A stretch of DNA of 32,000 nucleotides from Candidatus Iainarchaeum sp. (lineage in GTDB: Archaea; Iainarchaeota; Iainarchaeia; Iainarchaeales; VGJJ01): positions 330,001 through 362,000 of the forward strand of contig JAUYHT010000002.1 in NCBI GenBank assembly GCA_030688545.1, in the 5' to 3' direction. The translations under genes were made by a program, and so were the position numbers. The notes below the pieces were generated by a model. That model did not search any database and was not told the origin of the DNA. It worked only from the letters and a program-made list of their open reading frames with translations. Of this stretch, positions 10,507 through 24,800 are shown piece after piece; within the stretch, counting starts at the first letter, position 1; each line of letters starts with the position of its first letter.

Positions 10507-10642
10507 GATATATCGTAGAAAGTTCTTGTTAAATATCTATGTAGCTTTCTTAACAAGCACATCATTACTCAACTGAAAAAAGGTATTTTGGACCATTATA
10601 AGAATTGCAAAGCGAGGGAAAAAAGCACATCACATATTTGCA

Positions 10643-10650
10643 TTTATATA
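10643..10650 (+). promoter_or_regulatory. TATA box candidate for wHTH paralog P1
   Basis: TTTATATA is centred 27-28 nt upstream of ATG 10674. This supports that ATG as the ancestral start even though its frame closes after 5 codons. Confidence 0.45.
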
Positions 10651-10673
10651 TTCCACCCCTTATTATGTATCAT

Positions 10674-11526
10674 ATGGAGGGATTTTCCTGATACCTGAAA
10701 CAGGTTCATTAGAGCTCTTGACGAGCCAGCCGAAGAATGCCAAGGGAGCGATTATTCAGAAGCTGGCTAAGCAATGGCCATTGACAGCCAAGGAGCTATC
10801 CAATATTCTCCAACGAGAATTTGCCCTACAAGTTACCTATCAGCGGTTCATAAAGCCCTTCAAGAGCTCGAAAGGGATCACGTAGTGGAAAAGAATGAGC
10901 ATGGATACCAATTTCACGAGAATTGGATCCAAAACGTCCTCAAAATATCCAACGCCATCGCCCAAAACTATTCCCGAAATGAGCCCTTGGATTTTGATAA
11001 AGACGTTATCCAGCTCCACTTTACCTCATGGTTGAATGCCGGCCGGTTTGGAAGTTTCACGTTTAAGAATGAATTTCCTAATCCGGAGCATAAACCCATC
11101 CTGTCCTGCTGGATGCATGTATGGCCCGTCAGCACGGTATCCGCGGAAGAAAGCAGGATACTATTAGAGCAATCCAAACGGGAAAAAGGGCTATTCTGCG
11201 TATGCCCTAACAATACGCCTCTCGATCAACTGTTTGCCGACTGGATTGGGAAACTCGGACGGAAGCATATTTTAGGAGTTGATATGAAATTAGACCATGA
11301 CTATGTCATCAAAGGAGATCACATCGCCCAGTTTTATTATCCCAAAAGCTTCTTGGAAAAGGTGGATTTATTCTACCGAGATAACACCGACATCAAAAAT
11401 ATCGATTATCAAAAACTACAAGAACTCGCCACTGAAAAGACAAATATTCATACAATTGTCATTCGAAATAAGGAACTAGCGGAAGCCAAAAGAAATGAAT
11501 TGCTGGAACTGTTTCAAAACCAGTAG
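10674..11526 (+). pseudogene. wHTH paralog P1, reading frame disrupted twice
   Basis: ATG 10674 reads MEGFS*. Family-like sequence then continues in the -1 frame (FLIPETGSLELLTSQPKNAKGAIIQKLAKQWPLTAKELSNILQREFALQVTYQ). At about 10843-10846 it shifts -1 again into the track ORF (AVHKALQELERD...). The family motif YQAVHK is split across the two frames. Confidence 0.6.
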
Positions 11527-11538
11527 AAAGGGTTAGAT

Positions 11539-12375
11539 ATGGAACGATACACCCAACTCCTAAAAAAGCCGCAAACCGCCAAAACCGCCATTATTCAATA
11601 TTTGGCCAGCGACTTTCCACACCCCATTAAAAAAATCCATCATATTTTACAACGGGAATATGGAATGGATATATCCTATCAAGCCGTGCACAAAGCCATA
11701 CAAGAACTAGAAGAAGAATCCATCCTCACTAAAAAAGATGGGCAATGGCAACTCAACCCCACCTGGTTGGATTCCCAGGAACGATTCATCCATCAAACAA
11801 AACAAAAATATCAAGGAAACAAAAACAAATACAACATCAACCTGAACTACGATGGGCCACAGGTATTTGAATTTGATAATTTTACGGACTTTTCAGTGGA
11901 GACGGCAAATCTAGTTGCTAAGCAGGTCTTGTATCAGAATGGAGAAAAAGCATACTACATTCTTGAGTATGGATACTGGCCACTAAAATTCAAATTTGAT
12001 CACTTGCATGTTATATACAATCTCGTAAAAAAGTCCCCTAATTCTATTTACATTATTCGAAAAGTAACTACGTATGGTAAATGGGTACAAAAACAATACT
12101 TGAGAGTTGGAGGAATTGGGATTATTGGATCAAAAATACCTATCGAAGACGACTTCTGGATTCAAGGAGAATGGATGGGACAGGTACATTTCCCTGCCGA
12201 ATCCAAAAAAATTATTGAACAATATTGGAATAAATGGAAAAATCTAGAGGATAGCTTCAAAGAACTCGGACTGAAAAAAGAGCCGAAAATGGTCATACTT
12301 GCTACCGTTACCAAAAACCCATCCATGGCAAGATTTTTGAGTAAGGAGATAGAGAAATACCTAGCAGCTGGGTAG
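11539..12375 (+). CDS. wHTH paralog P2 (N-terminal winged helix plus uncharacterised C-terminal domain)
   Basis: 278 aa. ISYQAVHKAIQELEEESILTKKDGQWQL forms the wHTH recognition and wing region. A WPLKF motif lies in the C-terminal domain. The gene starts 12 nt after P1. Confidence 0.75.
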   Translation: MERYTQLLKKPQTAKTAIIQYLASDFPHPIKKIHHILQREYGMDISYQAVHKAIQELEEESILTKKDGQWQLNPTWLDSQERFIHQTKQKYQGNKNKYNINLNYDGPQVFEFDNFTDFSVETANLVAKQVLYQNGEKAYYILEYGYWPLKFKFDHLHVIYNLVKKSPNSIYIIRKVTTYGKWVQKQYLRVGGIGIIGSKIPIEDDFWIQGEWMGQVHFPAESKKIIEQYWNKWKNLEDSFKELGLKKEPKMVILATVTKNPSMARFLSKEIEKYLAAG

Positions 12376-12379
12376 ACTC

Positions 12380-12559: not shown

Positions 12560-12676
12560 CTTCCTCTGCGGCCTGAAGGCCGCGGTATCCATGTAGAGCA
12601 AGAACGACAAACGGCTCGCGTAAACGCTCGCCAAACGTGGGGCGACGAATGTCGCCCTGAAGGGCGAGGTATCAAC
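12556..12676 (+). repeat. Composite structured element (second full-length copy)
   Basis: Unit 1 is ATGACTTCCTCT-GCGGCC-TGAA-GGCCGC-GGTATCC (12556-12590). The central box is GCTCGCGTAAACGCTCGCC (12614-12632). Unit 2 is TCGCCC-TGAA-GGGCGA-GGTATCAAC (12652-12676). The order matches 3621-3750. Confidence 0.75.
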
Positions 12677-12687
12677 TTTTTTCCACA

Positions 12688-12706
12688 GGCTTTTTTCTAA
12701 AAAGCC
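12688..12706. terminator. Hairpin with T/A runs between converging transcription units
   Basis: GGCTTTTT-TCT-AAAAAGCC forms an 8-bp stem, preceded by T6 (12677-12682). It lies between the + strand remnant/element and the 3' end of the - strand gene 12771-13253. Confidence 0.35.
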
Positions 12707-12770
12707 GGAATGACAGAATTTCCCGCCTCGACGAACTAAAAAGAAGTTTGATTTCTCTCAAAAATTGTGA

Positions 12771-13253
12771 TTAAAATTTATCAATTGTTTCTCGGATTTT
12801 TGCCATTTTTGTGTGCGTATCAACTTTGAATCCATCTTCATTTTGTTTTGAAACCTCGATATTTTCTGTTAAAATATCAAGGGTGTTTTGATGGCCTTCC
12901 TTAATTGCTTTTCCCAAATTTTTTTTAAGTGCGATTGCAAATGTATTTGCTTTTTTTTCATCAAGAAAGTGTGCGATAATACTTGTTGGTGCTTGATTCA
13001 TGACTTCCAAAAATCCTTGCTTTGCAAATTGAAATCGATAAAAAAATTTCTCGCCGATAACATCTTGCCCCATATAATAAATTTTCTCTGATAAATCCTT
13101 GCTTAGAAAATCGATAAATTCAAACAAAGCATTCTGTGCCTTTTCCTGCTCACTCATTTGATCCCTGAAATTTAACTTCTCATTAATAGCCACAGAAAAA
13201 TTTAATGACTCAGGTAAATCTACAAGAGAAACCCAAACATGTTTTGTTTCCAT
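12771..13253 (-). CDS. Hypothetical protein
   Basis: 160-aa ORF. TATA-like TTTAAATA (reverse complement of 13275-13282) lies about 26 nt upstream of the ATG. No motif recognised. Confidence 0.55.
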   Translation of the reverse strand: METKHVWVSLVDLPESLNFSVAINEKLNFRDQMSEQEKAQNALFEFIDFLSKDLSEKIYYMGQDVIGEKFFYRFQFAKQGFLEVMNQAPTSIIAHFLDEKKANTFAIALKKNLGKAIKEGHQNTLDILTENIEVSKQNEDGFKVDTHTKMAKIRETIDKF

Positions 13254-13311: not shown

Positions 13312-14736
13312 CTAATGGTGAATCTGCGGTCGCGTTAATTGATGCAAATAATCATTCCCTTCATGAAACATTATGTCTAATTCTGTTGAATGTTTCATAC
13401 GTTTGATATGATGAGCATGCAAATATTCTTTCAAAACTTCTGATTCGTCTTCTGTGTAAACAACGGTAACAAGACGATGGTTTTTTCCAGCAGACATATT
13501 TAGCTCGTTCACAGCACTGGAATAATTTTCGGATTGTTTGACAGTGAGTAAATAGCAGGAAAATTCAGTCGATAAAAATTCAGAAAAAATATCATTTGTT
13601 TTAAATAAAAGCGGTGAGGATTGAGATTCACTTAAAAAGTCACCCGAAAACTTTTGCAATTGATTTAAGCTTGATAATTCATTGCAACGTTTTCCTACCA
13701 TGGATAAAATTTCTGGGTTTACATTTCCTACCTTTGTTTTCTTATTCATTGGGTCACCAACCCATTTTCCATAACTTTCAAATTTTTCTATTAATAATGG
13801 CATTAATTCTGAATTCTTTCCCGAAGCATCAAATATCGATTTCAATGCATTACAACCAATTGGCCAAGTTAAAGAAGATTCAACAGCAAGGTCGACTGTT
13901 TTTCTAATATCGGCAGAGCTTGCACAAATTGAAGCTGTACGTCCTGTTGTATGCTTCAATACAATTTTATCTGAAAAATGATCAACTTTGTGATCGCCAT
14001 TAATTTCCCACCGGAGTAAATTTTCAACTACCCCATTATCCCCAAAAGCCCAAATTGCAGACGATGAATCTACAAGGTCAAAGTGTATTTTTCCTTTGCT
14101 TTGGTTGTTCGTGTCCCAATTTACAACATGTAAAGCTTCTTTAGGATACCCACATTGAATTAGTGTCTGTATTGTTTTGGAGGCAATTGGAAAATCTGTT
14201 TTTGAAGGTTTAAAAATCCCTGGCAATCCCAATGAAATTAACCATGCAGCAACAAAACTTGTTACTCGGGGGTCATTTCCAGGAGTTACAACATAAACAT
14301 ACCCGGAAATGGGATGCATGTACTTAAACATGGGATGGCCTTCAATCGGATTTCGTCCGATTTTACCGTTATTGATACCAATTCGTTTCCGGATGAGATC
14401 TGGTATGATTTTGAATATTTTCTCAACCTCATTCAACTGATCTTTGACGGCGGTTATTGGCATTCCTGATAATTTAACCCATGATTCAATTTCATCGTCT
14501 GTAAATTTTATTTTTCGACTAGCTTCATACAAAATATTTGAACGCTCCTCAAATGGCATTTGCGCCAAAGTAGCAGTAGACGAGCGTGCTTTTGAAATTG
14601 CAGTTTTGGCATCAAGTACTCCCGCGTTTGGTACCTCGATTACAAAACCAGGATCATAAAAAGATTGGATTGGAAAATAAGCTTTAGTTAGGCTGATGCT
14701 ACTTCCACCAATTAAATTTTCAAATTTTAGACGCAT
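13312..14736 (-). CDS. LuxC-like acyl-CoA/acyl-protein reductase (aldehyde dehydrogenase superfamily)
   Basis: 474 aa. YVVTPGNDPRVTS, IFKPSKTDFP, IWAFGDNGVVENL, PIGCNALKSIF (candidate catalytic Cys) and C-terminal HEGNDYLHQL parallel LuxC segments (AGNVPLSG, IIKTSSTDP, VAWGG, RACFSAQNIY, HDGMRPLQRL). The classical ALDH ELGG Glu appears to be replaced (LKHTTGR). Confidence 0.65.
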   Translation of the reverse strand: MRLKFENLIGGSSISLTKAYFPIQSFYDPGFVIEVPNAGVLDAKTAISKARSSTATLAQMPFEERSNILYEASRKIKFTDDEIESWVKLSGMPITAVKDQLNEVEKIFKIIPDLIRKRIGINNGKIGRNPIEGHPMFKYMHPISGYVYVVTPGNDPRVTSFVAAWLISLGLPGIFKPSKTDFPIASKTIQTLIQCGYPKEALHVVNWDTNNQSKGKIHFDLVDSSSAIWAFGDNGVVENLLRWEINGDHKVDHFSDKIVLKHTTGRTASICASSADIRKTVDLAVESSLTWPIGCNALKSIFDASGKNSELMPLLIEKFESYGKWVGDPMNKKTKVGNVNPEILSMVGKRCNELSSLNQLQKFSGDFLSESQSSPLLFKTNDIFSEFLSTEFSCYLLTVKQSENYSSAVNELNMSAGKNHRLVTVVYTEDESEVLKEYLHAHHIKRMKHSTELDIMFHEGNDYLHQLTRPQIHH

Positions 14737-14902: not shown

Positions 14903-16051
14903 ATGAACCAAGCAATCAAAAGGATGAGTCGCAGTCCAATGATGGATTTTTTTGGAAAAGTTCCCAAAAATTGTATTAATTTATCAGTAGGCGAGCCATT
15001 ATTTGATACTCCTAAAAGAATCACAGATTTTGAAATTGATTCTTTAATCCAAGGAGCAAATAGATATACACCAGTAAAAGGCTTTTTGGAGTTGCGTGAA
15101 AAACTTGCTTCTAAATTAGCAAAAGATAATCATATAATAACCCAACCAAAAGATATTGTTGTAACATGCGGAAGTTCTGAAGCAATTGGACTCACAATAC
15201 AATCAACACTTAATTTAGGTGACAACGCAATAATTATTGATCCACATTTTCCCATCGTAGCTCCGCAAATAGAATTTACCGGGGGCATTGTAAAAAGACT
15301 GTCTTTAATGGAAAAGGATCATTTTCAACCAGACATAGACTTGCTCAATAAAATGATTGACAAAAAGACAAAATTAATTTACATGAACACTCCCCACAAT
15401 CCAACTGGAAGCGTATTTTCAAAAAATAGTATTTTAGAAATAATTGATATTGCCATCAAAAATGATATTTATTTGATTTCAGATGAAGTATATGAAAAAA
15501 TTATATATTCTGATAAACATCACTCGCCTGCAAGTCTTTCTAACTATCCTAAAATAATAACTGTAAATTCTTTTTCTAAATCTTACTCTATGTGCGGCCA
15601 TCGTGTTGGTTATGTGGTTACAAACAGCGACTTGATTGATAACATTGAAAAACTTAAATTTTCGTTGTCAGTGTCAACGCCAAACAGTTCCCAAAAAGCA
15701 GCCATTTGTGCATTAGATTCAGATAAAGAGTCCAACGAAATGGCAAAATTATACAAGAAACGTAGAGATATTATAGCAAATACAATTGGTAAACTTGGGC
15801 TTGACTTTGTCCTTCCAAAAGGGGCGTTCTACTTTTTTATCAATGTTAAAAGATTTGGTGGGGGGCAAAAGGTTTACGAAATGTTGCTAAAAAACAATAT
15901 TGTTGTCTTACCTGGAATTATATTTGGTAAGGCGTACTCAGACTATATTCGAATTAGCTATGTCCTGAATGAAGCAGGTCTAGAAAAAGCTATGCAAAAG
16001 TTTACAGAAATTATTAGCCAATACAACAGCCATTCTGAATTATTTCGTTAG
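14903..16051 (+). CDS. Class I/II PLP-dependent aminotransferase (AspC-like)
   Basis: NLSVGEPLFDTP, NTPHNPTGSVFS and the PLP-lysine motif SFSKSYSMCGHRVGY are all present in a 382-aa ORF. Confidence 0.9.
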   Translation: MNQAIKRMSRSPMMDFFGKVPKNCINLSVGEPLFDTPKRITDFEIDSLIQGANRYTPVKGFLELREKLASKLAKDNHIITQPKDIVVTCGSSEAIGLTIQSTLNLGDNAIIIDPHFPIVAPQIEFTGGIVKRLSLMEKDHFQPDIDLLNKMIDKKTKLIYMNTPHNPTGSVFSKNSILEIIDIAIKNDIYLISDEVYEKIIYSDKHHSPASLSNYPKIITVNSFSKSYSMCGHRVGYVVTNSDLIDNIEKLKFSLSVSTPNSSQKAAICALDSDKESNEMAKLYKKRRDIIANTIGKLGLDFVLPKGAFYFFINVKRFGGGQKVYEMLLKNNIVVLPGIIFGKAYSDYIRISYVLNEAGLEKAMQKFTEIISQYNSHSELFR

Positions 16052-17183
16052 GAACATCGATTCGGTCGATATCTGTTATAATGGGGCTTTTTCTTCCGCA
16101 AGAACATTCCATATCACCTAAAAATTTTACGGAATCTCCAGGGGCGTAACGAATATATCTTGTCCCTTCTCTTGCAAGTGTTGTGTAAATCAGAATTCCC
16201 CTTTCATTTTTCTTTACTGGAACCATTGTCCCGCTTTCATACTTTACTATCTCAACAAAATGAGGGCCGTAGTTTAAATGCATGTTATTGTATTTACAAA
16301 ACCTGGAATCTCCCCCAATAGTACTAGATGCTTGTGGTATTGCCTCGCTGGAGCCCAACGTTGTTGCCAATTTCTTATTATACGCTTCAGACCAATTAAT
16401 TACTTCATCGATTAATTTATACCCTGTGATAAAGTAAGTATTCACAGTACTCTCTAAAATATCTTGCCCCTCATCTACCAATGCAACAAAATCCACACCA
16501 CCGCCTTTCTTTGTATTATCTCCATCAGGAGACAATGGACCTTGTACAGTCGCCAACACATTTACAGAATAATCCCTTATTGTATTAATTATATCCGAAG
16601 CGGTGTCAGTTGTCCGCCTTGGAATAAACTGCATTTGCAAAATTGTTGACGCCTCCTTAATTATTTCACCACCTTTGTGTGTTGGATTGTAGGTTGAAAG
16701 GATCGTATCCCCTTTTTTCATGCCCATGGCAGAGAAACAACGAGCTAAACCATACGATTCTACTTTTCTATCATTTTGAGTAATAAAGGTTGGAGTTGCA
16801 ACACCCTTCGTCCCTCCACTTTTGTAAATAAATGAATGTGGTAACCCATGTGGTGCCATGGATAATGGATTTTTGGCAACTTTATTGCGAAATCCGATAG
16901 TGTCAACGGAAGTATCTTTTACCAGTATTGGCAAACGATAAAAGTCATCGATAGAATTCAACTTCAAATTGGGAGAATATCCACCATAAATTTCTGGCAT
17001 TAATTCTCTTGCTTCATTTACCGTGGTTATTAATAGGCTAAAAAATAAATTAGCCGCTTTTTTTGTTGATAGTTTATCCCACTCTGGAAGAAACCATGCG
17101 CTTATTGGAATACTATTGGCAGAGGTTATTCGCCCTGATTCAACCTCGGAGACGATTTCCTTAAAGGAGTTTAACCCAGACAT
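16014..17183 (-). CDS. LuxE/PaaK-like acyl-adenylate-forming enzyme (acyl-protein synthetase-like)
   Basis: A P-loop-like AMP motif YKSGGTKGVATP and RYAPGDSVKF...CSCGRKSPIITDIDRID resemble the PaaK / coenzyme F390 synthetase / LuxE group. The protein stops soon after the hinge, so it has no ANL C-terminal domain, and ends in NGCCIG. GTG 17192 is an alternative start. The 3' end overlaps the aminotransferase 3' end by 38 nt. Confidence 0.75.
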   Translation of the reverse strand: MSGLNSFKEIVSEVESGRITSANSIPISAWFLPEWDKLSTKKAANLFFSLLITTVNEARELMPEIYGGYSPNLKLNSIDDFYRLPILVKDTSVDTIGFRNKVAKNPLSMAPHGLPHSFIYKSGGTKGVATPTFITQNDRKVESYGLARCFSAMGMKKGDTILSTYNPTHKGGEIIKEASTILQMQFIPRRTTDTASDIINTIRDYSVNVLATVQGPLSPDGDNTKKGGGVDFVALVDEGQDILESTVNTYFITGYKLIDEVINWSEAYNKKLATTLGSSEAIPQASSTIGGDSRFCKYNNMHLNYGPHFVEIVKYESGTMVPVKKNERGILIYTTLAREGTRYIRYAPGDSVKFLGDMECSCGRKSPIITDIDRIDVPNEIIQNGCCIG

Positions 17184-17191
17184 TATTACCA

Positions 17192-18523
17192 CTACTTAGA
17201 AATCTCATGAAGCATTTTTGAATATAGCACAAAGATGTCGGCATTTAAGTGATGAAAGCCAGTACCCCCACCTGGTTTTGATCCTATTTCACCAAAAGAA
17301 GAAAAGCCAATAATTGGCGCCCTGAATTTCTTTTTTAAAGATTTAAGATCTTCTACCACATTTTCCTTCAAGACAACCCGACAGGATGCACATAAAATTG
17401 CCAAACAAAATGCCGCGGGACCTGTTTCAGAAGTATATTCCATTATATCTTTTGCAACTTCTGCAGGAGCTGAAACTACGTTTTTAGGATCTGCATCCAT
17501 TATGTACACGGGCCACCCTTCGATGAAGGGCGCTGTAAATGCCATAAAGTCCCCATTTGGTACTCCTCCTGCACGGATTACATAGTTACCATAAAGATCT
17601 GGAACACCTAATGGTTTAAGCTGTGTTAATTCTAAATAGTTTTTAACAAACTTTTCCTTTGAAATGCCGAGCTGTTCTGCATACCAATCAACGGGTTTTT
17701 TTCCTGAAATACTGGTGACAACATAACCACCTTTATCAACTCCAGAAATATAACCAAATTTATTTAGCCGTTTAGCACCATGCGCCATGGACAAACCATA
17801 CAAATGACTACATACGTTAACCGTTATTATTAAGCCATCCTTTAGTACTTTTCCAGAGTGAAGAGAATAGATATCATAAGGCTTGCCAGTAAAAAGCTTC
17901 TCAAGTTCTACACCAAAACTTCCACCGTAAATGGGTACATCGAGGCCGACTTCATCTGAAATTCCATTAATAATTTTCATTTCTTCCCCCATTTGTGGCA
18001 GCTTCATTCCACGAGAGAACGCAAAGACAAAAAATGAAGGAATTTTAACCATCCATTTTACATGAGCATTCTTCATTCGAGTAAATTGTAGATATGGATC
18101 TACAAACTTGTCTATGGAAAGTTTTTCCAACGCTTTTGAAACTGCTTCACGGGCTGCTTCACGGGGACTTTTCGAAACATTATCAATCGATGCAACTCCA
18201 ACATGAAGATAATCACTTTGAATTGAGGCGACAACAATTCCTTTCCTAAACATTTTTTCTTCAAAATAAACAGCGTCTGCACTTCCTCCAACAAACTCTG
18301 TACCACCTAAAACCGACATAAGACCTTCGTTAAGTTTATTTGGATCGTAATCTCCTGCAAAGAATACATATGTTATTGTTGGCGCTTTCCCTTTTAGTGG
18401 TGCTATAGCAGACATAGCAGCTTCTTTGGCGGCTTTTACTGGATCACTAGAGATGCTATAACCTGTTCCAACAGTTAACGCACTTTCTTTTTCCTTCATA
18501 ATATTTTTGCCAGCTGTTCGCAT
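17192..18523 (-). CDS. FIST-domain sensory protein (FIST_N plus FIST_C)
   Basis: The N-terminus (SDPVKAAKEAAMSAIAPLKGKAPTITYVFFAGDYD...LGGTEFVGGSADA) and C-terminus (PIIGFSSFGEIGSKPGGGTGFHHLNADIFVLY) fit the FIST_N and FIST_C patterns. ATG 18523 lies 4 nt after the V4R stop. The track start at 18592 overlaps the V4R gene. Confidence 0.75.
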   Translation of the reverse strand: MRTAGKNIMKEKESALTVGTGYSISSDPVKAAKEAAMSAIAPLKGKAPTITYVFFAGDYDPNKLNEGLMSVLGGTEFVGGSADAVYFEEKMFRKGIVVASIQSDYLHVGVASIDNVSKSPREAAREAVSKALEKLSIDKFVDPYLQFTRMKNAHVKWMVKIPSFFVFAFSRGMKLPQMGEEMKIINGISDEVGLDVPIYGGSFGVELEKLFTGKPYDIYSLHSGKVLKDGLIITVNVCSHLYGLSMAHGAKRLNKFGYISGVDKGGYVVTSISGKKPVDWYAEQLGISKEKFVKNYLELTQLKPLGVPDLYGNYVIRAGGVPNGDFMAFTAPFIEGWPVYIMDADPKNVVSAPAEVAKDIMEYTSETGPAAFCLAILCASCRVVLKENVVEDLKSLKKKFRAPIIGFSSFGEIGSKPGGGTGFHHLNADIFVLYSKMLHEISK

Positions 18524-18527
18524 TTTT

Positions 18528-19127
18528 TCACCACCAGAAATGTCCACGTTGATTAGGCTGACTAACCGCGAGCTGGTATTTAAACAAGTCACTATTCTTA
18601 TCGAAAGTCTCCCTTTTTTTAATCAAAAATGAACACTCTTTATCTCCCGAAGCTAAACATTGGTGTTCCAAGGCTTCAATATTTGGTTCATTGAATAGTA
18701 AAGAAAATGCCCCAGCCAGCATGCCCCTCGCGACGTGATCGACCGGGTGTTTTGTCTTTCCGTAATTTGAGGCGACAGCCGAACCATCCAAACTAACAAT
18801 AGCTTGCATTTTTGCAAAATCGATTGAATCAATATTGTATATTCCATCTCCATGAGAATTCAGTAAATTAAATATCAGGCCCATATATTCTGTTCGATTC
18901 ATTGAAACTCCCGCCTTTAATGTATTTGAGAAATTTTTAAATCCTACATCTTTACTTACATTGTAAATTTGTTGTGGAAGCTGATTATCTACCTGCTGTT
19001 GTAAGTTAGATATCAAACTGGAAGGCATCATTACAAATCGATCATTAAAAAATGATATATTTCCCTTTTCAAGTTTCAATTGTTTGACAAGCATCATTTT
19101 AGAAATAAAGTCGTATGTCATAACCAT
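18528..19127 (-). CDS. V4R-domain small-molecule-binding protein
   Basis: The C-terminal HQCLASGDKECSFLIKK matches the V4R Cys-x-Gly-x-Cys-x-Phe signature. Size is about 200 aa. The ATG overlaps the KaiC-like stop (TGATG). Confidence 0.7.
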   Translation of the reverse strand: MVMTYDFISKMMLVKQLKLEKGNISFFNDRFVMMPSSLISNLQQQVDNQLPQQIYNVSKDVGFKNFSNTLKAGVSMNRTEYMGLIFNLLNSHGDGIYNIDSIDFAKMQAIVSLDGSAVASNYGKTKHPVDHVARGMLAGAFSLLFNEPNIEALEHQCLASGDKECSFLIKKRETFDKNSDLFKYQLAVSQPNQRGHFWW

Positions 19128-19885
19128 CAAAGCTTGTTAACTAAGTCGGTGCTTTCTTGCAACTCAATTCCCTTACTAGTTATAATATAGTCAAGTGTGT
19201 GAAAGCCATGATCAGTGTACCTCATTTTCCTTACCTTTAATGTCCGAAATTTTGTTCCTTCCAGAAAATGCAGTGTCACCACACCATCAACTATAAATTC
19301 ACTCACTCCATCAGTGGAAAAACCTACATCTCCTTCATGTAATTCGGAAGTGAATATTACAGTTGTTCCAAATTCTTTGAACTTGTTTAGTACATTATAA
19401 AGAATAATTTTGGTTACAATTTGTTCAGTACGTTGTATAGGAGATACAGTGTCTACAATGTTTATCATTGAAAATGCTTTATCCTTTTGTAATTCACCTA
19501 GCATCAACGAATCTGTAAGAGTAGTCATTGAGTCAATGACAATTCTTTTAGGTTGAAATGTTTTAACTAATTCTTCAATTTTTGTCAGAAAGTGATCTTC
19601 TTCCAAGACTTTAAAGAAGATAATTCTGAGTAAATTCCGATTTTCTAGATCTACCAGATTCCATCCAAATTGAGACGCTGATTTCTGCAATTCTTCTTCG
19701 GACTGCTCAGTCGAGATATATAATCCTTTTTCCCCATATAGGGTGGCCCCATTAACAAGATACTGTAAGGAGATAGTAGATTTCCCAGTCCCAGCCCCCC
19801 CAGAAAGTAGTACGAGGTTCCCTTCGGGAAATCCCCCATTGAGGGCTTTGTCCAACCCCTGGATGCCAGTCTTGCTGCGTTGCAT
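19127..19885 (-). CDS. Single-domain KaiC-like (RecA-superfamily) ATPase
   Basis: GIQGLDKALNGGFPEGNLVLLSGGAGTGKST (Walker A) and RIVIDSMTTL (Walker B) are present. At 252 aa it has the typical archaeal KaiC-like layout. Confidence 0.9.
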   Translation of the reverse strand: MQRSKTGIQGLDKALNGGFPEGNLVLLSGGAGTGKSTISLQYLVNGATLYGEKGLYISTEQSEEELQKSASQFGWNLVDLENRNLLRIIFFKVLEEDHFLTKIEELVKTFQPKRIVIDSMTTLTDSLMLGELQKDKAFSMINIVDTVSPIQRTEQIVTKIILYNVLNKFKEFGTTVIFTSELHEGDVGFSTDGVSEFIVDGVVTLHFLEGTKFRTLKVRKMRYTDHGFHTLDYIITSKGIELQESTDLVNKL

Positions 19886-19906
19886 GGGCTAGGTATATTT
19901 TAGCGG

Positions 19907-19914
19907 TATAAAAA
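19907..19914. promoter_or_regulatory. Shared TATA-like box in the divergent KaiC / wHTH-P4 region
   Basis: TATAAAAA / TTTTTATA is centred about 26 nt upstream of the KaiC ATG (19885) on the - strand. It lies about 55 nt upstream of the P4 ATG on the + strand. Confidence 0.35.
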
Positions 19915-19965
19915 GGGATTGCCCGGATAGCTAAACGTGGATTTAAAACCTCTTAAAAGTTGGTT

Positions 19966-20829
19966 ATGTTTATGGATACATCGGGTGGGATACCTTTTGG
20001 AGGTAGCGGGCAGCGCGTTCGCGACCAGGTTTTAGTAATCTTAAGTGAGGAATTTCCTCTGACGGTAAAAGAATTGTTTAATCGCATATCGCGCCAAGGA
20101 CATGAAATTACATATCAGGCTGTTCACAAAGTTGTCAATCAACTGATGGATGAAGGAATAACGGAGAAAAAAGGAAAAGGTGTTCAATTAAGTCAAAGTT
20201 GGATTCACAAGGTAAAAGAATATGCGTTTAATGTCGATACTATATATACCAAAGGAAAACAATACAAACTACCCCGCTTCTTCGAGAAACCATACACGAT
20301 TGTGTTCGACGACTTTTCAACGTATGTTGTTTGGATCGCAGAAAATCTTCGCGACGGAAAATTCTCACAGGGAAAGACGGGCATAGTATATGGAATGTTT
20401 TATCACGCCCCATGGCCTTTGCGCTTTAATTTTTCTGATTTTGAATTGTTAAGGCAAATGGCCACCAAATGCCATGCAATTGGAATTTCGGCATGTGATA
20501 TGCCTTTTGATCGGTGGGTTGCTACTCACTTTAAGCTTGGTGGAGTAAAACAATTCAAAACAGGAATGAAAACCAAAATAAAAGAAGATTATTACGTGAC
20601 TGAGGATGTTGTGGTTCGTGTGAAGTTTTCTCCTGAAACGATTGCATTTCTCGACAAGATCTATTCTAAAATTCATGATTTAAAGGATCTTTTTCACTTT
20701 TACCTAGTTGAATTAGAACGAAAAGCCCCAATTCATATTGAATTAACAGCTGAGCGAAATCCCATGTTGGCAAAAATGATTGAAAACCAAATCAAACAAT
20801 ACCTAAACGAAACGGAGAAAGGAAAATGA
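19966..20829 (+). CDS. wHTH paralog P4
   Basis: ITYQAVHKVVNQLMDEGITEKKGKGVQL wHTH motif and APWPLRF in the C-terminal domain. The track start TTG 19960 and ATG 19972 are alternatives. Confidence 0.75.
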   Translation: MFMDTSGGIPFGGSGQRVRDQVLVILSEEFPLTVKELFNRISRQGHEITYQAVHKVVNQLMDEGITEKKGKGVQLSQSWIHKVKEYAFNVDTIYTKGKQYKLPRFFEKPYTIVFDDFSTYVVWIAENLRDGKFSQGKTGIVYGMFYHAPWPLRFNFSDFELLRQMATKCHAIGISACDMPFDRWVATHFKLGGVKQFKTGMKTKIKEDYYVTEDVVVRVKFSPETIAFLDKIYSKIHDLKDLFHFYLVELERKAPIHIELTAERNPMLAKMIENQIKQYLNETEKGK

Positions 20830-21686
20830 GCACGCAAAAATTAACTTCGATTCCCTTTATCGGTGGCCAAGGTTCTACGCGCGATGAAATCTTAGCCATT
20901 TTGAGCGAAGAGTTTCCCTTTTCCGCCAAGGAAATTTATGCCCGTGTCAAACGACAGGGAAGAAATGTTTCCTATCAAGCGGTTCATAAAACGCTCCAAT
21001 CCTTGATCGAACAGCGTGTGCTGGAAAAACAAAATTCCACATATCTCATCCAGAAAGAATGGATTACCAACATCCGGGATCATTTGACTATATTGGAACA
21101 TCAATATCAGGAAAAACCTTCGGCCAAAAAAGTGTTAGAGGAAGCCAAAAAAACCACCGTCAAACTTCACTTTTCGAGTTTAACGACAATGAGTGTTTTT
21201 ACTGCCGAATTGTTGGGTTTGTATCGTGAACAAACTAAAAGACCAGTTCCCCATTTCGCATTTTTGCGTCATGCATGGTGGCCATTGAAATTCGAACCAT
21301 CCCAATATTTTTTATTCAAGCGAATGGACGATAATAATCCTAATAATCGAGTCGTCGTCATCAAAAACGATCCCTTCGATAAGTGGATCGTTCGATACTA
21401 CATGCTTGTGAATAGTTCGAATAGGTTGCGATTCGAAGAAAAAGCAAAATGGGAGGAAGACTTGATTGTAAAAGGGGACTTGGTTTTGCAAACACGATAT
21501 TCCAAAGAAACGTTAAAACGCATGGATGACATCTACCAAAAAATATCCGGACTGACTGAATTATTCGACACATATTTTGTGAACATAGGAAAAGACGAAG
21601 GATTTGATATAGACATTACCATATCACACAATCCGACTATGGCAAAACTCATTACGGAGAAAATTAAAGGCTATTTTGGCGAATAA
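20826..21686 (+). CDS. wHTH paralog P5
   Basis: VSYQAVHKTLQSLIEQRVLEKQNSTYLI wHTH motif and AWWPLKF in the C-terminal domain. It shares an ATGA overlap with P4. Confidence 0.75.
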   Translation: MSTQKLTSIPFIGGQGSTRDEILAILSEEFPFSAKEIYARVKRQGRNVSYQAVHKTLQSLIEQRVLEKQNSTYLIQKEWITNIRDHLTILEHQYQEKPSAKKVLEEAKKTTVKLHFSSLTTMSVFTAELLGLYREQTKRPVPHFAFLRHAWWPLKFEPSQYFLFKRMDDNNPNNRVVVIKNDPFDKWIVRYYMLVNSSNRLRFEEKAKWEEDLIVKGDLVLQTRYSKETLKRMDDIYQKISGLTELFDTYFVNIGKDEGFDIDITISHNPTMAKLITEKIKGYFGE

Positions 21687-21818: not shown

Positions 21819-24800
21819 TCAGTTCAGCCCAATATTTTGATCAAGGGTATAGTAGGGGGAGTAATAGCCACTCCCCAGGGGATCGATGGCGCGGCAGCGC
21901 AGGCCAACGTTGGGTTGGGTGCCAAGGCCTGAAATGTCCCATGCGAAAGAGAGGCTGGCGTCGTGCACCCCTATTTCCTGCCAATTGGAGGGGTTGGTGT
22001 TGGTTTGGGGCGTGCCGAAGGCGAGGGCCGTATCATAGGCATGACCGGGAGCGTTCCCCGTGTAGATGTTGTCCGACTCAGAAGCATTCCCGCCGTGATT
22101 CCCCACGGAGAGATAGGGGTACCAGTGATTGGCGCCTTCCCATCCGTTCACCTTTACGAAAGCAGAAGCGTTGGCGTCCATGATGAAGGCCCCCATCCAC
22201 CCGGTGCGGGAAATCAACACTTCCGTGCGATCCCCAACCATCACTTGGGGATTGGAATTGCTGGTGTTCTGCGTCCCATTGGATTGGTCCACTTCAACAC
22301 GGGCATACAGGTATCCATTGGGACACGCGTTGTCCACATTCATCCCGAAATATTCGTCTAAATAGGTCGGAGCCGTATGGTCGGTGTCGCGCGTGAGGGC
22401 TATTTCGGTATTCATGCACGCCGAAGTGGGTCGGGGTTGCGCGCGGAGGTAGAAACTGCTCCCCTGCTGGACCCAATCCTTCGTGATTTGATCCTCGGAA
22501 GAAGAGCCTCCCGTGCGCTGCAAGATACCCCCGCTTTCCTGCCAGGAACCTGAGCGGATGGTCCAACCATCCAGGCTGCCGTTCTCAAAATCATCCACCA
22601 GGTGTTGGGCTCCAGTGAGGAAGAAATCAGAGGGAGTGGTCTTCCCTACATACGTCGCGGAGGGGTTCCCCCAGTACATGTCGATGGTGTTCGCTCCGGC
22701 ATGGGCGTCCAATTCGATCCAGAAGGAGGCGAATGCCCCGGGGCCGTGGAGCATGAGATAATGTTTGAGAAGAACCCCCTCATGGACAAAACGGATGTCC
22801 TGGAAATCCTCCTGGACATTGTCCCAGAAAGCGGGATCTGGGAGGATGGTCTGATTGAGGTCAATGGAAGTGCGGAAGCCCGTTTGGGGCCCGGACATGG
22901 TTAAGGAGATGGGAACACGGTGGCTCCAATTGGAATCCCACCAGTTCCCTCCCCCAGTCTCGAGGGAAGCCTCCAAATGATACCTCAGGGCATCATTTTC
23001 TGGGTCCATGGACCCCGAGCAGGCCAAATCAAGGGTATTCACATAGGTCCCAGCGCAGGGAAGGTCGTCACAGGTAATACTAATGGGGGCGGAGGGAGGC
23101 AGATTAGGCAAAACGGCGAGCCAGGCCATGGCCTGCTGAACCAAATCCCGTTTTTGGGCAGGGTCCTGCACCATGCCCAGGGCGAAACCAAAGAATAGCC
23201 TCCTTGAGAAATTCTCTAAGGCCGTAATAGCGGCATTCCCATCCACCCAAGTGGCGGCCGTGAAAGCCTCCGGGAAAGGGAGTACGGCATCCGGGTATCC
23301 GCTATTATCCCCATTTAGATCCAATGGCGCGAGCGTGGGAAAGACTGAAGTGGATTGAGGGGTAATCGCGGCGGCGCCGATAGGGAGGAGGATATCCTTC
23401 ACGTGCCTCACCCCCACATAGTCATGGAGAAACGCGTCATTGTGGTCGAAGGCGATGTCATTCCCTTCGAAGAGGATATTTCCCGTGTAAAGTTCGATGG
23501 CGGCCACGTCATTGGCGTCGACGCTCTGGCTCCAGTAATTCCCCGCCGACCATACGATTAGAGGAAATTGATTCAGGAAGGAAGGGGAAGGGTTCCCTTG
23601 CGTCGATTCGTCCCAGCGGGTGACGCAATATCCGGTTTCCTTCAATTCTTTCTCCCATAGGAAAGCAGTGGAGGCATTCTCATCCACGAATGGGGAGGCA
23701 TCGTCGTCGTTCACGAGCAACACATTCTCCTCTGTGCAGAAGAATAACCGATCATCATACGTGTTGTCCGTCTCATCCGCCTCCGTCACCAGATTAGCGG
23801 GATCAACCACGATCGACACATCATAATTTCCTTTTGGGAGCAAGCGAATATGCGACACCGAAGCGACGGTGCCGGGTTCAATGTTCGTAATTGTATGAGT
23901 GGCGGTAATGCCATTGATGGAGAAGCGCACCTTGAGGCTGGGGATGAGAGTACCCCCGAAATTGGCGACGAATGCTTTAACCTTGAGGGAGCCATTGGCA
24001 TCATTATAGGTCCCCTCCACCCATACGGGAATAGCATTGGGCAACACAGGCGCCACGAAGATGGGGGTTTCCTTCCAATTGTTTAATGAATTAGGTTCGA
24101 TAATCCCAAAATCCCGGTTGGCATGGATGGTGAGGGTATGCGTACCGGCCGGAAGGAAAATGGCGGGAGTTAATCGTTTGGATTGGTTGACATCCAGCGT
24201 GCCAGTATCAGTATGGATGGGTTGCCCGTCCAAGAGCAGGTCAATGGTTACATTTGGAGCGGGTTGATGGCCCTTGTTCCGCACGATATAGGGGAGGGGG
24301 TTGATCCCTTCGATTAGGTATTGGGAAAAGAGTGTCAGATGTGGGGGATCGACATTGATTAAATCAATGGCCTCCTGCGGATGGAAGAATGTCTGAACGC
24401 TCGGAATGACTATGTCGGGACCTGACGTGGTGAACATCCAGGAGAAGATGTTCTGGAGGAGGGTTTGGTGGTGAATAAAGGGTAAATGAGTAGCTGGAGA
24501 AAATCCAAGGAATAAACCCTTGGAATCATTATCCTGAAACGCCACGATCCCACTCTCACTATTTTCCCAATTGGCCAAGGCCACGCCGCCATTGATGGGG
24601 GTGACGGCATCTGGAAATATAGTTTGATTTAAATCCATAGGAATAGGGGATGGGATGTTCTGGAGGATGTAATGTCCCAATGCGATGTTCAGGGCGACTG
24701 GATTGTTTGGATTTAATGATATTTCTTCCAAAAAAGTGGCGTGAGCGCGATTGACCATGAGTTCGTCCGAATTGTGGCGGTATCCTATTTCATCCCCGGC

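What the first reader, a model, noticed from the sequence alone, without database searches (positions are those of the whole stretch)
16014..19885. Translationally coupled four-gene operon: KaiC-like ATPase, V4R, FIST, LuxE-like acyl-adenylating enzyme
All four genes lie on the - strand and their junctions are minimal:
- KaiC-like / V4R: stop and start overlap (TGATG)
- V4R / FIST: 4-nt gap
- FIST / ligase: 8-nt gap, or a 1-nt overlap if GTG 17192 is the start

V4R and FIST are both predicted small-ligand-binding modules. Comparative genomics has proposed that archaeal single-domain KaiC-like ATPases act as signalling hubs.

Here two sensor modules and the ATPase are fused at operon level to an enzyme rather than to a transcription factor or chemotaxis output. 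That suggests post-translational, ligand-gated control of a carboxylate-activating enzyme. I do not recognise this combination as a described system.
Basis: partly seen in the sequence, partly recalled or inferred. Interest (0 to 1): 0.72.

Follow-up and report, generated by a model that had tools for sequence, protein, structure and literature searches.

The report
Archaeal sensor-linked LuxCE-like acid reductase module
The four genes are real and stay together across many tiny DPANN archaea, but they are only part of a larger conserved gene set built around a two-protein enzyme that probably turns a carboxylic acid into an aldehyde the way the bacterial light-organ enzymes LuxE/LuxC do, and this enzyme pair is surrounded by sensor-type proteins, a KaiC-like ATPase and DNA-binding proteins in a combination I found described in no paper I could search.

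Summary
Four minus-strand ORFs (KaiC-like, V4R, FIST, ligase) have the stated junctions: TGATG, a 4-nt gap and an 8-nt gap.

The finding is incomplete, though. The conserved unit has six proteins plus wHTH regulators and spans about 10.6-21.7 kb.
- The ligase is a PaaK-clade adenylating enzyme. It lacks the whole ANL C-terminal subdomain and ends in a disordered tail with an invariant Gly-Cys, which is the LuxE architecture.
- In all 25 informative loci (archaeal and bacterial) it sits next to an ALDH-fold protein. That protein keeps the catalytic Cys and Asn but has no general-base Glu, as in LuxC.
- In 17 well-covered archaeal loci, FIST, V4R and a new 160-aa protein (P160) are each present 17/17 and KaiC 16/17, with shuffled gene order.
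- Eight bacterial loci carry only ligase+ALDH.
- Two to seven wHTH paralogs, or a 94-aa wHTH, flank the module.

Most likely this is a LuxE/LuxC-type thioester-relay carboxylate reductase under a dedicated KaiC/V4R/FIST/wHTH control layer. The enzymology is well supported by inference. The role of the accessory proteins and the substrate are unknown. I found no description in the literature I could search.

The parts
19127..19885 (-). Single-domain KaiC-like (RecA-superfamily) ATPase. It is predicted to be active: Walker A GGAGTGKS, Walker B IVIDS, an acidic catalytic residue in STE, and the R214/K220/R222 cluster.
   Evidence: Pfam PF06745 3e-55. Invariant motifs in alignment A6. A family member lies within 8 kb in 16/17 well-covered archaeal loci. 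Close orthologs (42-54%) occur in L001, L007, L010 and L039.
18528..19127 (-). Stand-alone V4R domain protein, a small-ligand or metal-binding fold. The start ATG overlaps the KaiC stop (TGATG).
   Evidence: Pfam PF02830 1e-9. Invariant C157 and C165 in A8. The profile hits the V4R structures MJ1460 (2osd, 3e-9) and the MopR phenol sensor. Present in 17/17 loci and usually adjacent to KaiC.
17192..18523 (-). FIST_N + FIST_C protein, a distant full-length NosP relative. It is the most conserved protein of the module (40-61% identity, 55 invariant columns) and is almost always directly upstream of the ligase.
   Evidence: Pfam FIST 2e-15 and FIST_C 5e-15. NCBIfam NosP 1e-7, below cut-off. Alignment A5. 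17/17 loci. 16/17 FIST-anchored metagenome loci have the ligase next.
16014..17183 (-). PaaK-clade adenylate-forming enzyme consisting of the N-terminal ANL domain only. It ends in a disordered tail ...NGCCIG* with invariant G385-C386. Predicted to be a LuxE-type acyl-protein synthetase.
   Evidence: - No Pfam hit.
- PaaK by NCBIfam and PDB.
- The profile covers PaaK residues 6-326 of 436 only.
- AF2 pLDDT 88.5, with tail 383-389 below 50.
- Foldseek PaaK-family hits at TM about 0.7.
- Tail conservation.
- ANL motifs SGGTKG, GSSEA, Y..GD and the R374 hinge are invariant.
14903..16051 (+). Class I/II PLP aminotransferase, convergent with the ligase (38-nt overlap) and divergent from the ALDH-like gene. 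It is a facultative companion of the enzyme pair.
   Evidence: Pfam PF00155 1e-64. Closest to the archaeal Asp aminotransferase model, below cut-off. Aminotransferases recur near ligase+ALDH in L004, L011, L019, L024, L029, L034 and L041.
13312..14736 (-). Divergent ALDH-fold protein with invariant catalytic Cys295 and oxyanion Asn154. It has His/Arg where ALDHs have the general-base Glu. Predicted to be a LuxC-type acyl-thioester reductase and the obligate partner of the ligase.
   Evidence: Pfam Aldedh 1.4e-16; LuxC only 0.04. Alignment A2. PDB profile gives generic ALDHs at 2e-29. Adjacent to the ligase in 17/17 archaeal and 8/8 bacterial loci.
12771..13253 (-). P160, a conserved 145-165-aa protein of an unannotated family (invariant D12, G62, D64, P89, H95, E133). 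Alpha/beta sandwich fold with no confident structural match.
   Evidence: No Pfam or NCBIfam hit. 60 homologs, all 'hypothetical'. AF2 pLDDT 86. Best Foldseek hit is AdoMetDC at E 5.6e-3, TM 0.38-0.47. 17/17 loci.
19960..20829 (+). wHTH paralog 1: an N-terminal winged helix (W-P-L-[TS]-x-K...[ST]-Y-Q-A-[VI]-H-K) plus a C-terminal domain of about 200 aa of unknown fold. It is divergent from the KaiC operon across 74 bp.
   Evidence: Weak FUR/Penicillinase_R wHTH hits. Family alignment A7. HMM 1e-103. No PDB relative.
20826..21686 (+). wHTH paralog 2; its start overlaps the stop of paralog 1 by 4 nt.
   Evidence: Pfam FUR 1.7e-5 and HTH_12. HMM 3e-99.
10577..11526 (+). wHTH paralog 3, split over two reading frames (N-terminal wHTH in the frame of 10577-10882, the rest in 10771-11526). 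This is either a frameshifted pseudogene or an assembly error.
   Evidence: HMM hits 1e-9 and 1.4e-37 in two frames. Translations.
11539..12375 (+). wHTH paralog 4, convergent with P160.
   Evidence: HMM 5e-68. DNA repeat D1.
19886..19959 (.). Shared divergent control region. A TATA-like TTTTTATA (minus strand; plus-strand coordinates 19907-19914) lies 22-29 nt upstream of the KaiC ATG, which would give a leaderless or near-leaderless operon mRNA.
   Evidence: Direct reading. Bacterial promoter and terminator scans were at chance level.

Best explanation
The locus (about 10.6-21.7 kb) encodes a two-protein carboxylic-acid reductase that works like LuxE/LuxC, embedded in an archaea-specific control module.

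Enzymatic core (strong inference):
1. The ligase adenylates a carboxylate with ATP.
2. It has no ANL C-terminal subdomain and no CoA step. The acyl group is instead captured as a thioester on Cys386 of its own flexible C-terminal tail.
3. The tail swings into the ALDH-fold partner and passes the acyl group to Cys295.
4. NAD(P)H reduces the thioester to a free aldehyde.
5. Where present, the neighbouring PLP aminotransferase (or SHMT-like enzymes in bacteria) uses that aldehyde or processes the amino/keto acid skeleton.

Accessory layer (inference only):
- It is present only in archaea.
- V4R and FIST bind a small ligand (substrate, product, or a redox or metal signal).
- Together with P160 they set the state of the KaiC-like ATPase.
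- KaiC in turn controls the activity or assembly of the FIST-ligase-ALDH complex and/or the wHTH paralogs.
- The wHTH paralogs regulate the divergent promoters.

The substrate is unknown.
For: Ligase architecture:
- It aligns to PaaK only over residues 6-326 of 436.
- The AF2 model is a single confident domain with a disordered last 7 residues.
- Foldseek gives PaaK-clade hits at TM about 0.7.
- G385-C386 is invariant down to 34% identity.
- 40 of 57 short (340-430 aa) representatives end in G-C, against 3 of 61 long ones.
- LuxE is described as lacking the C-terminal subdomain, with a ~20-aa tail (TRxxKGCxLS) whose Cys364 is acylated and delivers the acyl group to LuxC Cys296 (PMC9157457).

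Partner:
- The ALDH-fold gene is adjacent in 25/25 informative loci.
- Cys295 and Asn154 are invariant and there is no general-base Glu.
- Rosetta stones: a natural LuxC-ligase fusion (P0269, LuxC 9e-80), a second LuxC-ligase fragment (P0287), a ligase with a PP-binding carrier domain where the tail would be (P0225), and an Fe-ADH-ligase fusion (P0313).
- Precedent for an ALDH-like thioester reductase followed by a transaminase: the tambjamine Tab pathway.

Accessory module:
- FIST, V4R and P160 are each present in 17/17 loci and KaiC in 16/17, with variable order and orientation. All four are 0/8 in bacterial loci.
- The KaiC catalytic motifs are intact and the V4R Cys pair is intact.
- wHTH paralogs are divergently adjacent here and expanded to 3-7 copies in L007, L010 and L039.
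Against: - No biochemical data exist for any member.
- The ligase does not match the LuxE HMM, and the ALDH-like protein does not reach the LuxC threshold. The LuxCE analogy is therefore architectural, not orthology.
- The LuxC-ligase fusion P0269 retains a canonical C-terminal subdomain, so it shows coupling of the two enzyme types but not the tail mechanism.
- FIST is the most conserved protein of the module, more so than the enzymes. That is unusual for a sensor and fits a structural or catalytic subunit equally well.
- P160 has no recognisable fold relative.
- The direction of the reaction (reductive or oxidative) is not established.
- The class-I aminotransferase type normally acts on 2-oxo acids, not on aldehydes.
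Confidence: 0.55

Rival explanations
1. All six proteins form one biosynthetic or metabolic machine. In this view FIST, P160 and V4R are not sensors. They are substrate-binding, carrier or catalytic subunits: for example, V4R could be a hydrophobic-ligand holder or an ATC-hydrolase-like enzyme, and FIST/P160 could prepare or present the substrate. KaiC would be an assembly or remodelling ATPase. The wHTH proteins alone would do the regulation.
For: - FIST is more conserved than the enzymes, with 55 invariant columns including His, Cys, Asp and Lys residues.
- FIST is nearly always translationally adjacent to the ligase.
- P160 has invariant Asp, His and Glu residues.
- Lineage-specific enzymes or membrane proteins are inserted inside the module: X515 with an SDR Rossmann fold and the X314 membrane protein.
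- V4R relatives have been suggested to be enzymatic (PMC5847659).
Against: - Bacterial ligase+ALDH pairs work without any of the accessory proteins (0/8), so they are not needed for the core chemistry.
- V4R, FIST and KaiC families are known mainly from signalling contexts (MopR, NosP, and the KaiC hub proposal).
- No catalytic fold was recognised in P160.
Confidence: 0.22
2. The pair runs in the opposite direction as an energy-conserving module. The ALDH-fold protein oxidises an aldehyde to a Cys295 thioester; with no Glu there is no hydrolysis. The acyl group passes to the ligase tail Cys, then to AMP, and pyrophosphorolysis yields ATP. This would be substrate-level phosphorylation, useful for fermentative DPANN cells. 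The aminotransferase would supply the aldehyde or keto precursor.
For: - The absence of the hydrolytic Glu is also what an acyl-transferring, non-hydrolysing ALDH needs.
- The module is retained in very reduced genomes of several DPANN phyla.
- AMP-forming ligase reactions are chemically reversible (general knowledge, not tested here).
Against: - The only characterised system of this architecture, LuxCE, runs reductively and consumes ATP and NADPH.
- No PPi-generating or aldehyde-generating enzymes are conserved in the neighbourhood.
- The energetics are marginal.
Confidence: 0.08
3. In it, a self-contained four-gene operon uses KaiC, V4R and FIST to gate, post-translationally, a conventional carboxylate-activating (CoA-type) ligase, with no transcription-factor output.
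For: Tight coupling of the four genes in this window. Conserved co-localisation of the four families.
Against: - The exact four-gene order is specific to this window. Elsewhere the stable unit is P160/FIST-ligase-ALDH with V4R-KaiC alongside.
- The ligase lacks the subdomain needed for CoA thioesterification.
- ALDH and P160 are as conserved as the quartet.
- wHTH proteins are adjacent.
Confidence: 0.1
4. The adjacency of sensor-type genes and enzyme genes is fortuitous, or simply inherited synteny without functional linkage.
For: KaiC-like and V4R genes are multi-copy in archaeal genomes. Several loci carry 2-3 KaiC genes.
Against: 16-17 of 17 loci across at least six phylum-level lineages retain all the families while gene order and strand vary. 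That pattern is the signature of selection for linkage. Bacterial loci that lack one accessory gene lack them all.
Confidence: 0.03

Closest known systems
LuxE/LuxC fatty-acid reductase of bacterial bioluminescence (PMC9157457)
   Same: - An adenylating enzyme without the ANL C-terminal subdomain.
- A short flexible C-terminal tail with a conserved Gly-Cys.
- An adjacent ALDH-fold partner of about 475-490 aa with a single essential Cys and reverse (reductive) chemistry.
- No CoA requirement.
   Different: - The ligase is a PaaK-clade protein and is not detected by the LuxE HMM. LuxE is also not found by the family profile.
- The partner scores 13 bits against the LuxC cut-off of 21.
- The Cys is 4 residues from the end, against 10 in LuxE.
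- There is no LuxD, luciferase or lux context.
- The hosts are archaea, and the pair carries FIST, P160, V4R, KaiC and wHTH companions.
PaaK / coenzyme F390 synthetase family (COG1541) CoA ligases
   Same: Best sequence and fold match for the N-domain. It shares the P-loop, the Y..GD motif, the hinge Arg and a Cys/His cluster (C296, H302, C360, C362).
   Different: The about 110-residue C-terminal subdomain (A10 Lys, CoA site) is absent. All NCBIfam scores are far below cut-off (44.5 against 700). It has a terminal Gly-Cys instead.
KaiC-like ATPase 'signal-transduction hubs' of archaea (Makarova, Galperin and Koonin 2017; cited in PMC5847659; paper not held, content recalled from memory)
   Same: A single-domain KaiC-like ATPase with intact motifs, encoded next to putative sensor domains and HTH proteins.
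   Different: Here the hub is consistently linked to a defined enzyme pair and to FIST, V4R and P160. I could not check whether that paper lists this neighbourhood. Full-text searches for the combination found nothing.
ALDH-like acyl-thioester reductase plus transaminase route to amines (tambjamine TabE/TabA; bioRxiv 10.1101/2025.08.11.669332)
   Same: An ALDH-annotated enzyme reduces a protein-bound thioester to an aldehyde, which a PLP enzyme then converts.
   Different: That system uses an ACP carrier and a class-III omega-transaminase. Here the carrier is the ligase's own tail Cys and the aminotransferase is class I/II and only facultatively linked.
NosP (FIST) and MopR/PoxR/MsvR (V4R) sensors
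   Same: Same domain families. Full-length similarity of the FIST protein to NosP. The V4R Cys pair is shared with MopR-type sensors.
   Different: These are stand-alone proteins without kinase, sigma-54 activator or DNA-binding output domains. The NosP score is 31 against a cut-off of 450. Ligand unknown.

Membership tests
LuxE acyl-protein synthetase (PF04443) | ANL N-terminal domain without the C-terminal subdomain | tested here: met
   The profile covers PaaK 6-326 of 436. The AF2 model is single-domain. Family members are uniformly about 390-425 aa.
LuxE acyl-protein synthetase (PF04443) | Short flexible C-terminal tail with a conserved (Gly-)Cys that is acylated | tested here: inconclusive
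   The tail and the invariant G385-C386 are present, and the tail is disordered in the model. Acylation itself is not testable with these tools.
LuxE acyl-protein synthetase (PF04443) | Sequence match to the LuxE family model | tested here: not met
   No Pfam hit even at E<=10. LuxE was not found by the family profile in the PDB at E<=10.
LuxE acyl-protein synthetase (PF04443) | Encoded with, and acting on, a LuxC-type ALDH-fold reductase | tested here: met
   An ALDH-fold gene is adjacent in 25/25 loci. LuxC-ligase fusions exist among relatives. Physical transfer was not tested.
PaaK / phenylacetate-CoA ligase (TIGR02155, NF041878) | Score above the curated cut-off | tested here: not met
   44.5 bits against 700, and 26.7 against 646.
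PaaK / phenylacetate-CoA ligase (TIGR02155, NF041878) | C-terminal subdomain (AMP-binding_C_2) for adenylation Lys and CoA thioesterification | tested here: not met
   Absent.
PaaK / phenylacetate-CoA ligase (TIGR02155, NF041878) | PaaK-type N-domain fold and ANL core motifs | tested here: met
   Foldseek 1e-18, TM 0.68-0.71. Invariant SGGTKG, GSSEA, Y..GD and R hinge.
LuxC acyl-CoA reductase (PF05893) | Match to the LuxC model above gathering score | tested here: not met
   13.2 bits against 21.
LuxC acyl-CoA reductase (PF05893) | ALDH fold with a nucleophilic Cys, acting reductively (no hydrolytic Glu) | tested here: inconclusive
   Pfam Aldedh 60.6 bits against 23. Invariant C295 and N154, with H/R at the Glu position. 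The direction of the reaction is not testable here.
KaiC family ATPase (PF06745) | Pfam match, Walker A/B, catalytic acidic residue, Arg/Lys cluster | tested here: met
   187 bits against 26.6. Motifs invariant.
Circadian KaiC (TIGR02655) | Two tandem KaiC domains with KaiA/KaiB partners | tested here: not met
   Single 252-aa domain; 89 bits against 546. No KaiA or KaiB in the window.
V4R domain (PF02830) | Pfam match and the conserved Cys pair | tested here: met
   38.5 bits against 31. C157 and C165 invariant. The profile hits 2osd and MopR.
FIST (PF08495 + PF10442) | Both FIST_N and FIST_C domains | tested here: met
   57.4 against 23.2 and 56.3 against 28.5 bits.
NosP NO sensor (NF041558) | Equivalog score; haem binding; kinase partner | tested here: not met
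   31 bits against 450. No histidine kinase in any locus. Haem binding is not testable.

The most novel reading that the evidence does not exclude
A conserved machine, widespread in DPANN archaea, has six proteins: P160, FIST, a Cys-tail ligase, an ALDH-like reductase, V4R and KaiC. It also has its own expanding family of wHTH regulators. In it a KaiC-like ATPase and two ligand-binding proteins would directly gate a thioester-relay enzyme. This would be the first case of an archaeal KaiC 'hub' with an enzymatic output. The enzyme pair would be an independently evolved PaaK-derived counterpart of LuxE/LuxC. It might even run in reverse, making ATP from aldehyde oxidation.
Probability: 0.3. Interest if true: 0.8.

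Novelty: new variant of a known kind. Interest (0 to 1): 0.68.

Why it matters
- DPANN archaea have very small genomes, yet at least six of their lineages plus Altiarchaeales keep this six-gene module. That suggests it does something important for these largely uncultured symbionts.
- It offers a concrete, testable example for the still untested idea that KaiC-like ATPases are archaeal signalling hubs. Defined partners (V4R, FIST, P160, wHTH) and a measurable enzymatic read-out are all in hand.
- It shows that the unusual LuxE solution, replacing the ANL C-terminal domain and CoA with a cysteine on a swinging tail, occurs in a separate PaaK-derived lineage and in many other short ligases. This widens the class of CoA-independent carboxylate reductases, which are of biocatalytic interest.
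- It defines two new protein families (P160 and the wHTH paralogs) by genomic context.

Tried and rejected
- Pfam on the ligase gave nothing, even at E<=10. The LuxE label therefore cannot be a family assignment.
- LuxE was not retrieved by the ligase profile or by the fold search top 50.
- LuxC was not among the top PDB hits for the ALDH profile.
- The P160 fold search gave only weak AdoMetDC-like or Roadblock-like hits (TM<0.5). I do not rely on them. P160's C-terminus is not conserved, so I rejected a LysW- or ubiquitin-like carrier role.
- For the X314 membrane protein I suspected a UbiA-type prenyltransferase from a DxxDxxxD motif. There is no Pfam or PDB support, so I dropped the idea.
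- The wHTH C-terminal domain has no PDB or Pfam relative.
- FIST has no solved relative by sequence.
- Bacterial promoter and terminator scans are uninformative for an archaeon and were at chance level.
- Rfam and tRNA scans of the window were empty.
- No shared operator-like repeat was found between the control regions; the repeats found are coding-sequence paralogy of the wHTH genes.
- The key KaiC-hub paper (mBio 2017) is not held. I could not check whether it lists this neighbourhood.
- The substrate could not be inferred. Neighbouring genes in the window (NUDIX, HAD, GNAT, SpoU, MFS) are not pathway-specific.

Full report
**Observation**

The four ORFs exist on the minus strand exactly as described. 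I read the junctions directly from the sequence:
- KaiC-like gene: 19885..19127. It ends in TGA, whose A is the first base of the V4R ATG (TGATG).
- V4R: 19127..18528.
- FIST: starts 4 nt further on at ATG 18523 and runs to 17192. A GGTGGTG Shine-Dalgarno-like run precedes it.
- Ligase: starts 8 nt further on at ATG 17183 and runs to 16014. Alternatively, GTG 17192 overlaps the TAG by one base.

Homolog alignments support the ATG starts.

Pfam confirms three of the four assignments above gathering thresholds: KaiC at 3e-55, V4R at 1e-9, and FIST_N and FIST_C at about 1e-15 each. The fourth protein has no Pfam hit, even at E<=10. A 100%-identical GenBank protein identifies the source as a Candidatus Diapherotrites (DPANN) MAG contig of 418 kb.

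**The ligase**

NCBIfam and PDB sequence searches place it as a remote relative of PaaK, F390 synthetase and related adenylate-forming enzymes. All scores are far below family cut-offs.

The alignments stop at about residue 300-326 of PaaK's 400-436 residues. The family profile covers PaaK 6-326 of 436. The ANL C-terminal subdomain is therefore missing.

This is a family trait and not a truncation:
- 120 homologs are uniformly about 385-425 aa.
- Every full-length one ends in a conserved tail, R-[IV]-D-x-P-E-[DE]...G-C-[CA]-[IA]-G* or a variant.
- G385 and C386 are invariant in a 43-sequence alignment reaching down to 34% identity. So are the ANL core motifs: P-loop SGGTKG, GSSEA, Y..GD and the hinge R374.

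AlphaFold gives one confident compact domain (pLDDT 88.5, pTM 0.90). Only the last seven residues, which carry the Gly-Cys, are disordered. Foldseek returns PaaK-clade enzymes (BT_0428, ClxA, HCL, PaaK1) at TM about 0.7 over the N-domain. It also returns EhpF, which from memory is another ANL enzyme without the C-terminal domain.

An exhaustive HMM search of 1.84 billion representatives finds only 38 with E<=1e-30, so the family is small. Among the top 150 hits, 40 of the 57 short proteins (340-430 aa) end with G-C in the last eight residues. Only 3 of the 61 longer, canonical-length proteins do.

[quoted passage not shown] That motif is TRxxKGCxLS. Its Cys364 takes the acyl group from acyl-AMP and carries it more than 30 A to Cys296 of LuxC (PMC9157457).

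By sequence, however, it is a PaaK-derived lineage and not a LuxE family member.

**The missed partner**

Gene neighbourhoods of homologs show an ALDH-family gene immediately after the ligase every time. I also scanned species-representative genomes with the ligase and metagenome contigs with FIST, then mapped genes by tblastn and HMMs.

In this window the ALDH-like gene is at 13312-14736 (-). It is separated from the ligase only by a convergent class-I/II aminotransferase (14903-16051, +), whose 3' end overlaps the ligase's by 38 nt.

Properties of the ALDH family:
- It keeps the nucleophile Cys295 (WPIGCNS.K) and the oxyanion Asn154 (TPGNDPR).
- It has H/R where ALDHs have the hydrolytic general-base Glu (ELGGK becomes LRH.SGR).

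That is what a thioester reductase or acyl-transferring enzyme needs, and not what an aldehyde oxidase needs. It is a divergent ALDH (Pfam 1.4e-16; PDB profile 2e-29 to generic ALDHs). It does not reach the LuxC threshold. LuxC itself is under 18% identical to ALDHs, is about 55 kDa, and has one essential Cys.

Fusion proteins support the coupling:
- P0269 is a bona fide LuxC domain (9e-80) fused to a ligase of this type. It retains a canonical C-terminal subdomain.
- P0287 is a second LuxC-ligase fragment.
- P0225 has a phosphopantetheine carrier domain where the Cys tail would be.
- P0313 is fused to an Fe-alcohol dehydrogenase.

**The conserved module**

After removing duplicates, 17 archaeal loci (including the window) have at least 4.5 kb on both sides of the ligase. 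HMM detection gives these counts:

| Family | Archaeal loci (n=17) | Bacterial loci (n=8) |
|---|---|---|
| Ligase | 17 | 8 |
| ALDH-like | 17 | 8 |
| FIST | 17 | 0 |
| V4R | 17 | 0 |
| P160 | 17 | 0 |
| KaiC | 16 | 0 |
| long wHTH | 7 | 0 |

The archaeal loci come from Micrarchaeota, Iainarchaeota/Diapherotrites, Norongarragalinales, Woesearchaeota, Nanoarchaeia, Aenigmatarchaeota and Altiarchaeales. The bacterial loci come from Chloroflexia, Anaerolineae, Ignavibacteriales, Nitrospirae and Parachlamydiales.

Anchoring on FIST instead of the ligase, 16 of 17 informative metagenome loci have the ligase directly downstream.

Gene order and strand vary:
- P160 lies either before FIST or after ALDH.
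- V4R usually abuts KaiC, often convergently.
- The KaiC-V4R-FIST-ligase order seen here is particular to this window.

Conserved linkage with shuffled order argues for function and not for frozen synteny.

Notes on the individual accessory proteins:
- P160 (12771-13253, -) belongs to an unannotated family of about 60 "hypothetical" proteins. Its model is confident (pLDDT 86) but has no significant structural neighbour.
- KaiC keeps Walker A/B, the catalytic acidic residue and the Arg/Lys cluster.
- V4R keeps its Cys pair and matches MJ1460 and MopR.
- FIST is the most conserved member, with 55 invariant columns, and has no solved relative by sequence.

**Transcription factors are present**

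Divergent from the KaiC operon across 74 bp are two paralogous genes of about 285 aa (19960-20829 and 20826-21686). Each has an N-terminal winged helix (weak FUR, Penicillinase_R and HTH_12 hits) and a C-terminal domain of unknown type.

A family HMM finds two more paralogs beyond P160: 11539-12375, and 10577/10774-11526. The latter is split over two frames. There is also a decayed fragment at about 12400-12560. Paralogs of this family therefore bracket the module.

The same family occurs as 3, 4 and 7 tandem copies next to the module in L010, L007 and L039. Loci that lack it often have a 94-aa stand-alone wHTH (X94) directly upstream of FIST.

A TATA-like TTTTTATA lies 22-29 nt upstream of the KaiC ATG, which is compatible with a leaderless operon transcript.

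**Mechanism**

Shown: the anatomy, motif conservation, linkage statistics and fusion proteins.

Inferred for the enzyme core:
1. The carboxylate is adenylated.
2. The acyl group is captured on the ligase's own Cys386.
3. It is relayed to Cys295 of the ALDH-fold partner.
4. NAD(P)H-dependent reduction releases an aldehyde, as in LuxE/LuxC.
5. PLP enzymes act downstream in some lineages. Aminotransferases recur in 8 loci, and SHMT-type genes occur in bacterial loci. The tambjamine TabE/TabA route is a precedent for thioester to aldehyde to amine.

Inferred for the accessory layer, with much less support: V4R and FIST sense a ligand and act through the KaiC ATPase on the enzyme complex and/or on the wHTH regulators.

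Alternatives I cannot exclude:
- The accessory proteins are integral subunits of a biosynthetic machine. FIST's extreme conservation and the lineage-specific inserts X314 (membrane protein) and X515 (SDR-like) fit this.
- The pair runs oxidatively to conserve energy as ATP.

The substrate is unknown.

**Comparison and novelty**

- The enzyme pair works like LuxCE but fails the sequence-membership tests for LuxE and LuxC.
- The ligase fails PaaK membership on the C-terminal domain and on the score cut-offs.
- KaiC, V4R and FIST are ordinary members of their domain families.
- The combination was not found in 8 million full texts: the searches KaiC+V4R+FIST, FIST domain+KaiC, FIST+V4R, FIST domain+archaea+ALDH and PaaK+DPANN all returned nothing relevant.
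- The original KaiC-hub paper could not be read, so prior listing of this neighbourhood there cannot be excluded.

I rate the finding a new variant of known kinds. It combines a PaaK-derived, LuxE-type carboxylate reductase with a KaiC-centred accessory set. It is interesting mainly because the conservation across DPANN lineages is so strong and because it gives the KaiC-hub hypothesis a tractable system with an enzymatic read-out.

Noticed in passing
window 12376-12770: This 'intergenic' stretch holds a decayed fifth wHTH N-terminal fragment with in-frame stops (about 12400-12560). A GC-rich structured element follows at 12555-12720: two copies of TGAAGGSCGMGGTA 84 nt apart, each after a GC hairpin. 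RNA fold is -60.3 kcal/mol, z = -3.4. No Rfam or tRNA match.
   Followed up: partly
window 10577-11526: wHTH paralog 3 is split between two reading frames, overlapping at 10771-10882. It is a frameshifted pseudogene, an assembly error, or possibly a programmed frameshift.
   Followed up: partly
L039 3541-9421; L007 14279-16849; L010 7151-7999 and 15003-16749: The wHTH family is expanded in tandem right next to the module: 7 copies in L039, 4 in L007 and 3 in L010. Rapid paralog expansion of a regulator family with an uncharacterised C-terminal domain of about 200 aa.
   Followed up: partly
L003 4813-5097; L014 8360-8653; L031-L038; L016 8154-8378: X94 is a 94-97-aa stand-alone wHTH-like protein, 63-93% identical between loci. 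It lies directly upstream of FIST in loci that lack the long wHTH paralogs. Absent from the window.
   Followed up: partly
L005 11149-12093; also L008, L010, L011, L013, L039, L040: X314 is a polytopic membrane protein with an invariant G-D-I-R-D-T-x-F-D (DxxDxxxD) motif, inserted between ligase and ALDH in seven loci. No Pfam or PDB relative was found. A UbiA-like function was suspected but is unsupported.
   Followed up: partly
L003 6424-8004; L007 8454-10001; L035 2147-3703: X515 is a 515-526-aa protein with an N-terminal SDR-type Rossmann motif, inserted between FIST and the ligase in three loci.
   Followed up: no
window 21819-27392 (-): A 1857-aa protein with subtilisin (S8) catalytic motifs: DTG, HGTH and GTSMAAP. 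Its GC content (49-57%) is far above the 33-40% of the surrounding genes, so it may have been acquired horizontally. The next large gene (28777-31956) is also GC-rich.
   Followed up: no
window 16014-16051: The convergent ligase and aminotransferase genes overlap by 38 nt at their 3' ends. The ligase end is certainly real because the family tail is conserved up to the stop.
   Followed up: partly
proteins P0200-P0212, P0241 (representative search): A separate group of relatives about 450-470 aa long ends in ...G-S-C-A-x-D-A-L-S-L. This is a different conserved Cys-containing C-terminal motif and may be another thiol-tail variant of PaaK-like ligases.
   Followed up: no
L004 / L029 / L028 (bacterial loci): Bacterial ligase+ALDH pairs recur with FKBP, a class-I aminotransferase and SHMT (or an SHMT-GCV_T fusion). 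In Parachlamydiales they also occur with a methyltransferase, an ATP-grasp and a metallo-beta-lactamase-fold gene. This looks like a small-molecule biosynthetic cluster.
   Followed up: no
L046 7559-8860: This is the only FIST-subfamily locus with room downstream that lacks the ligase (45% identity to the window FIST).
   Followed up: no
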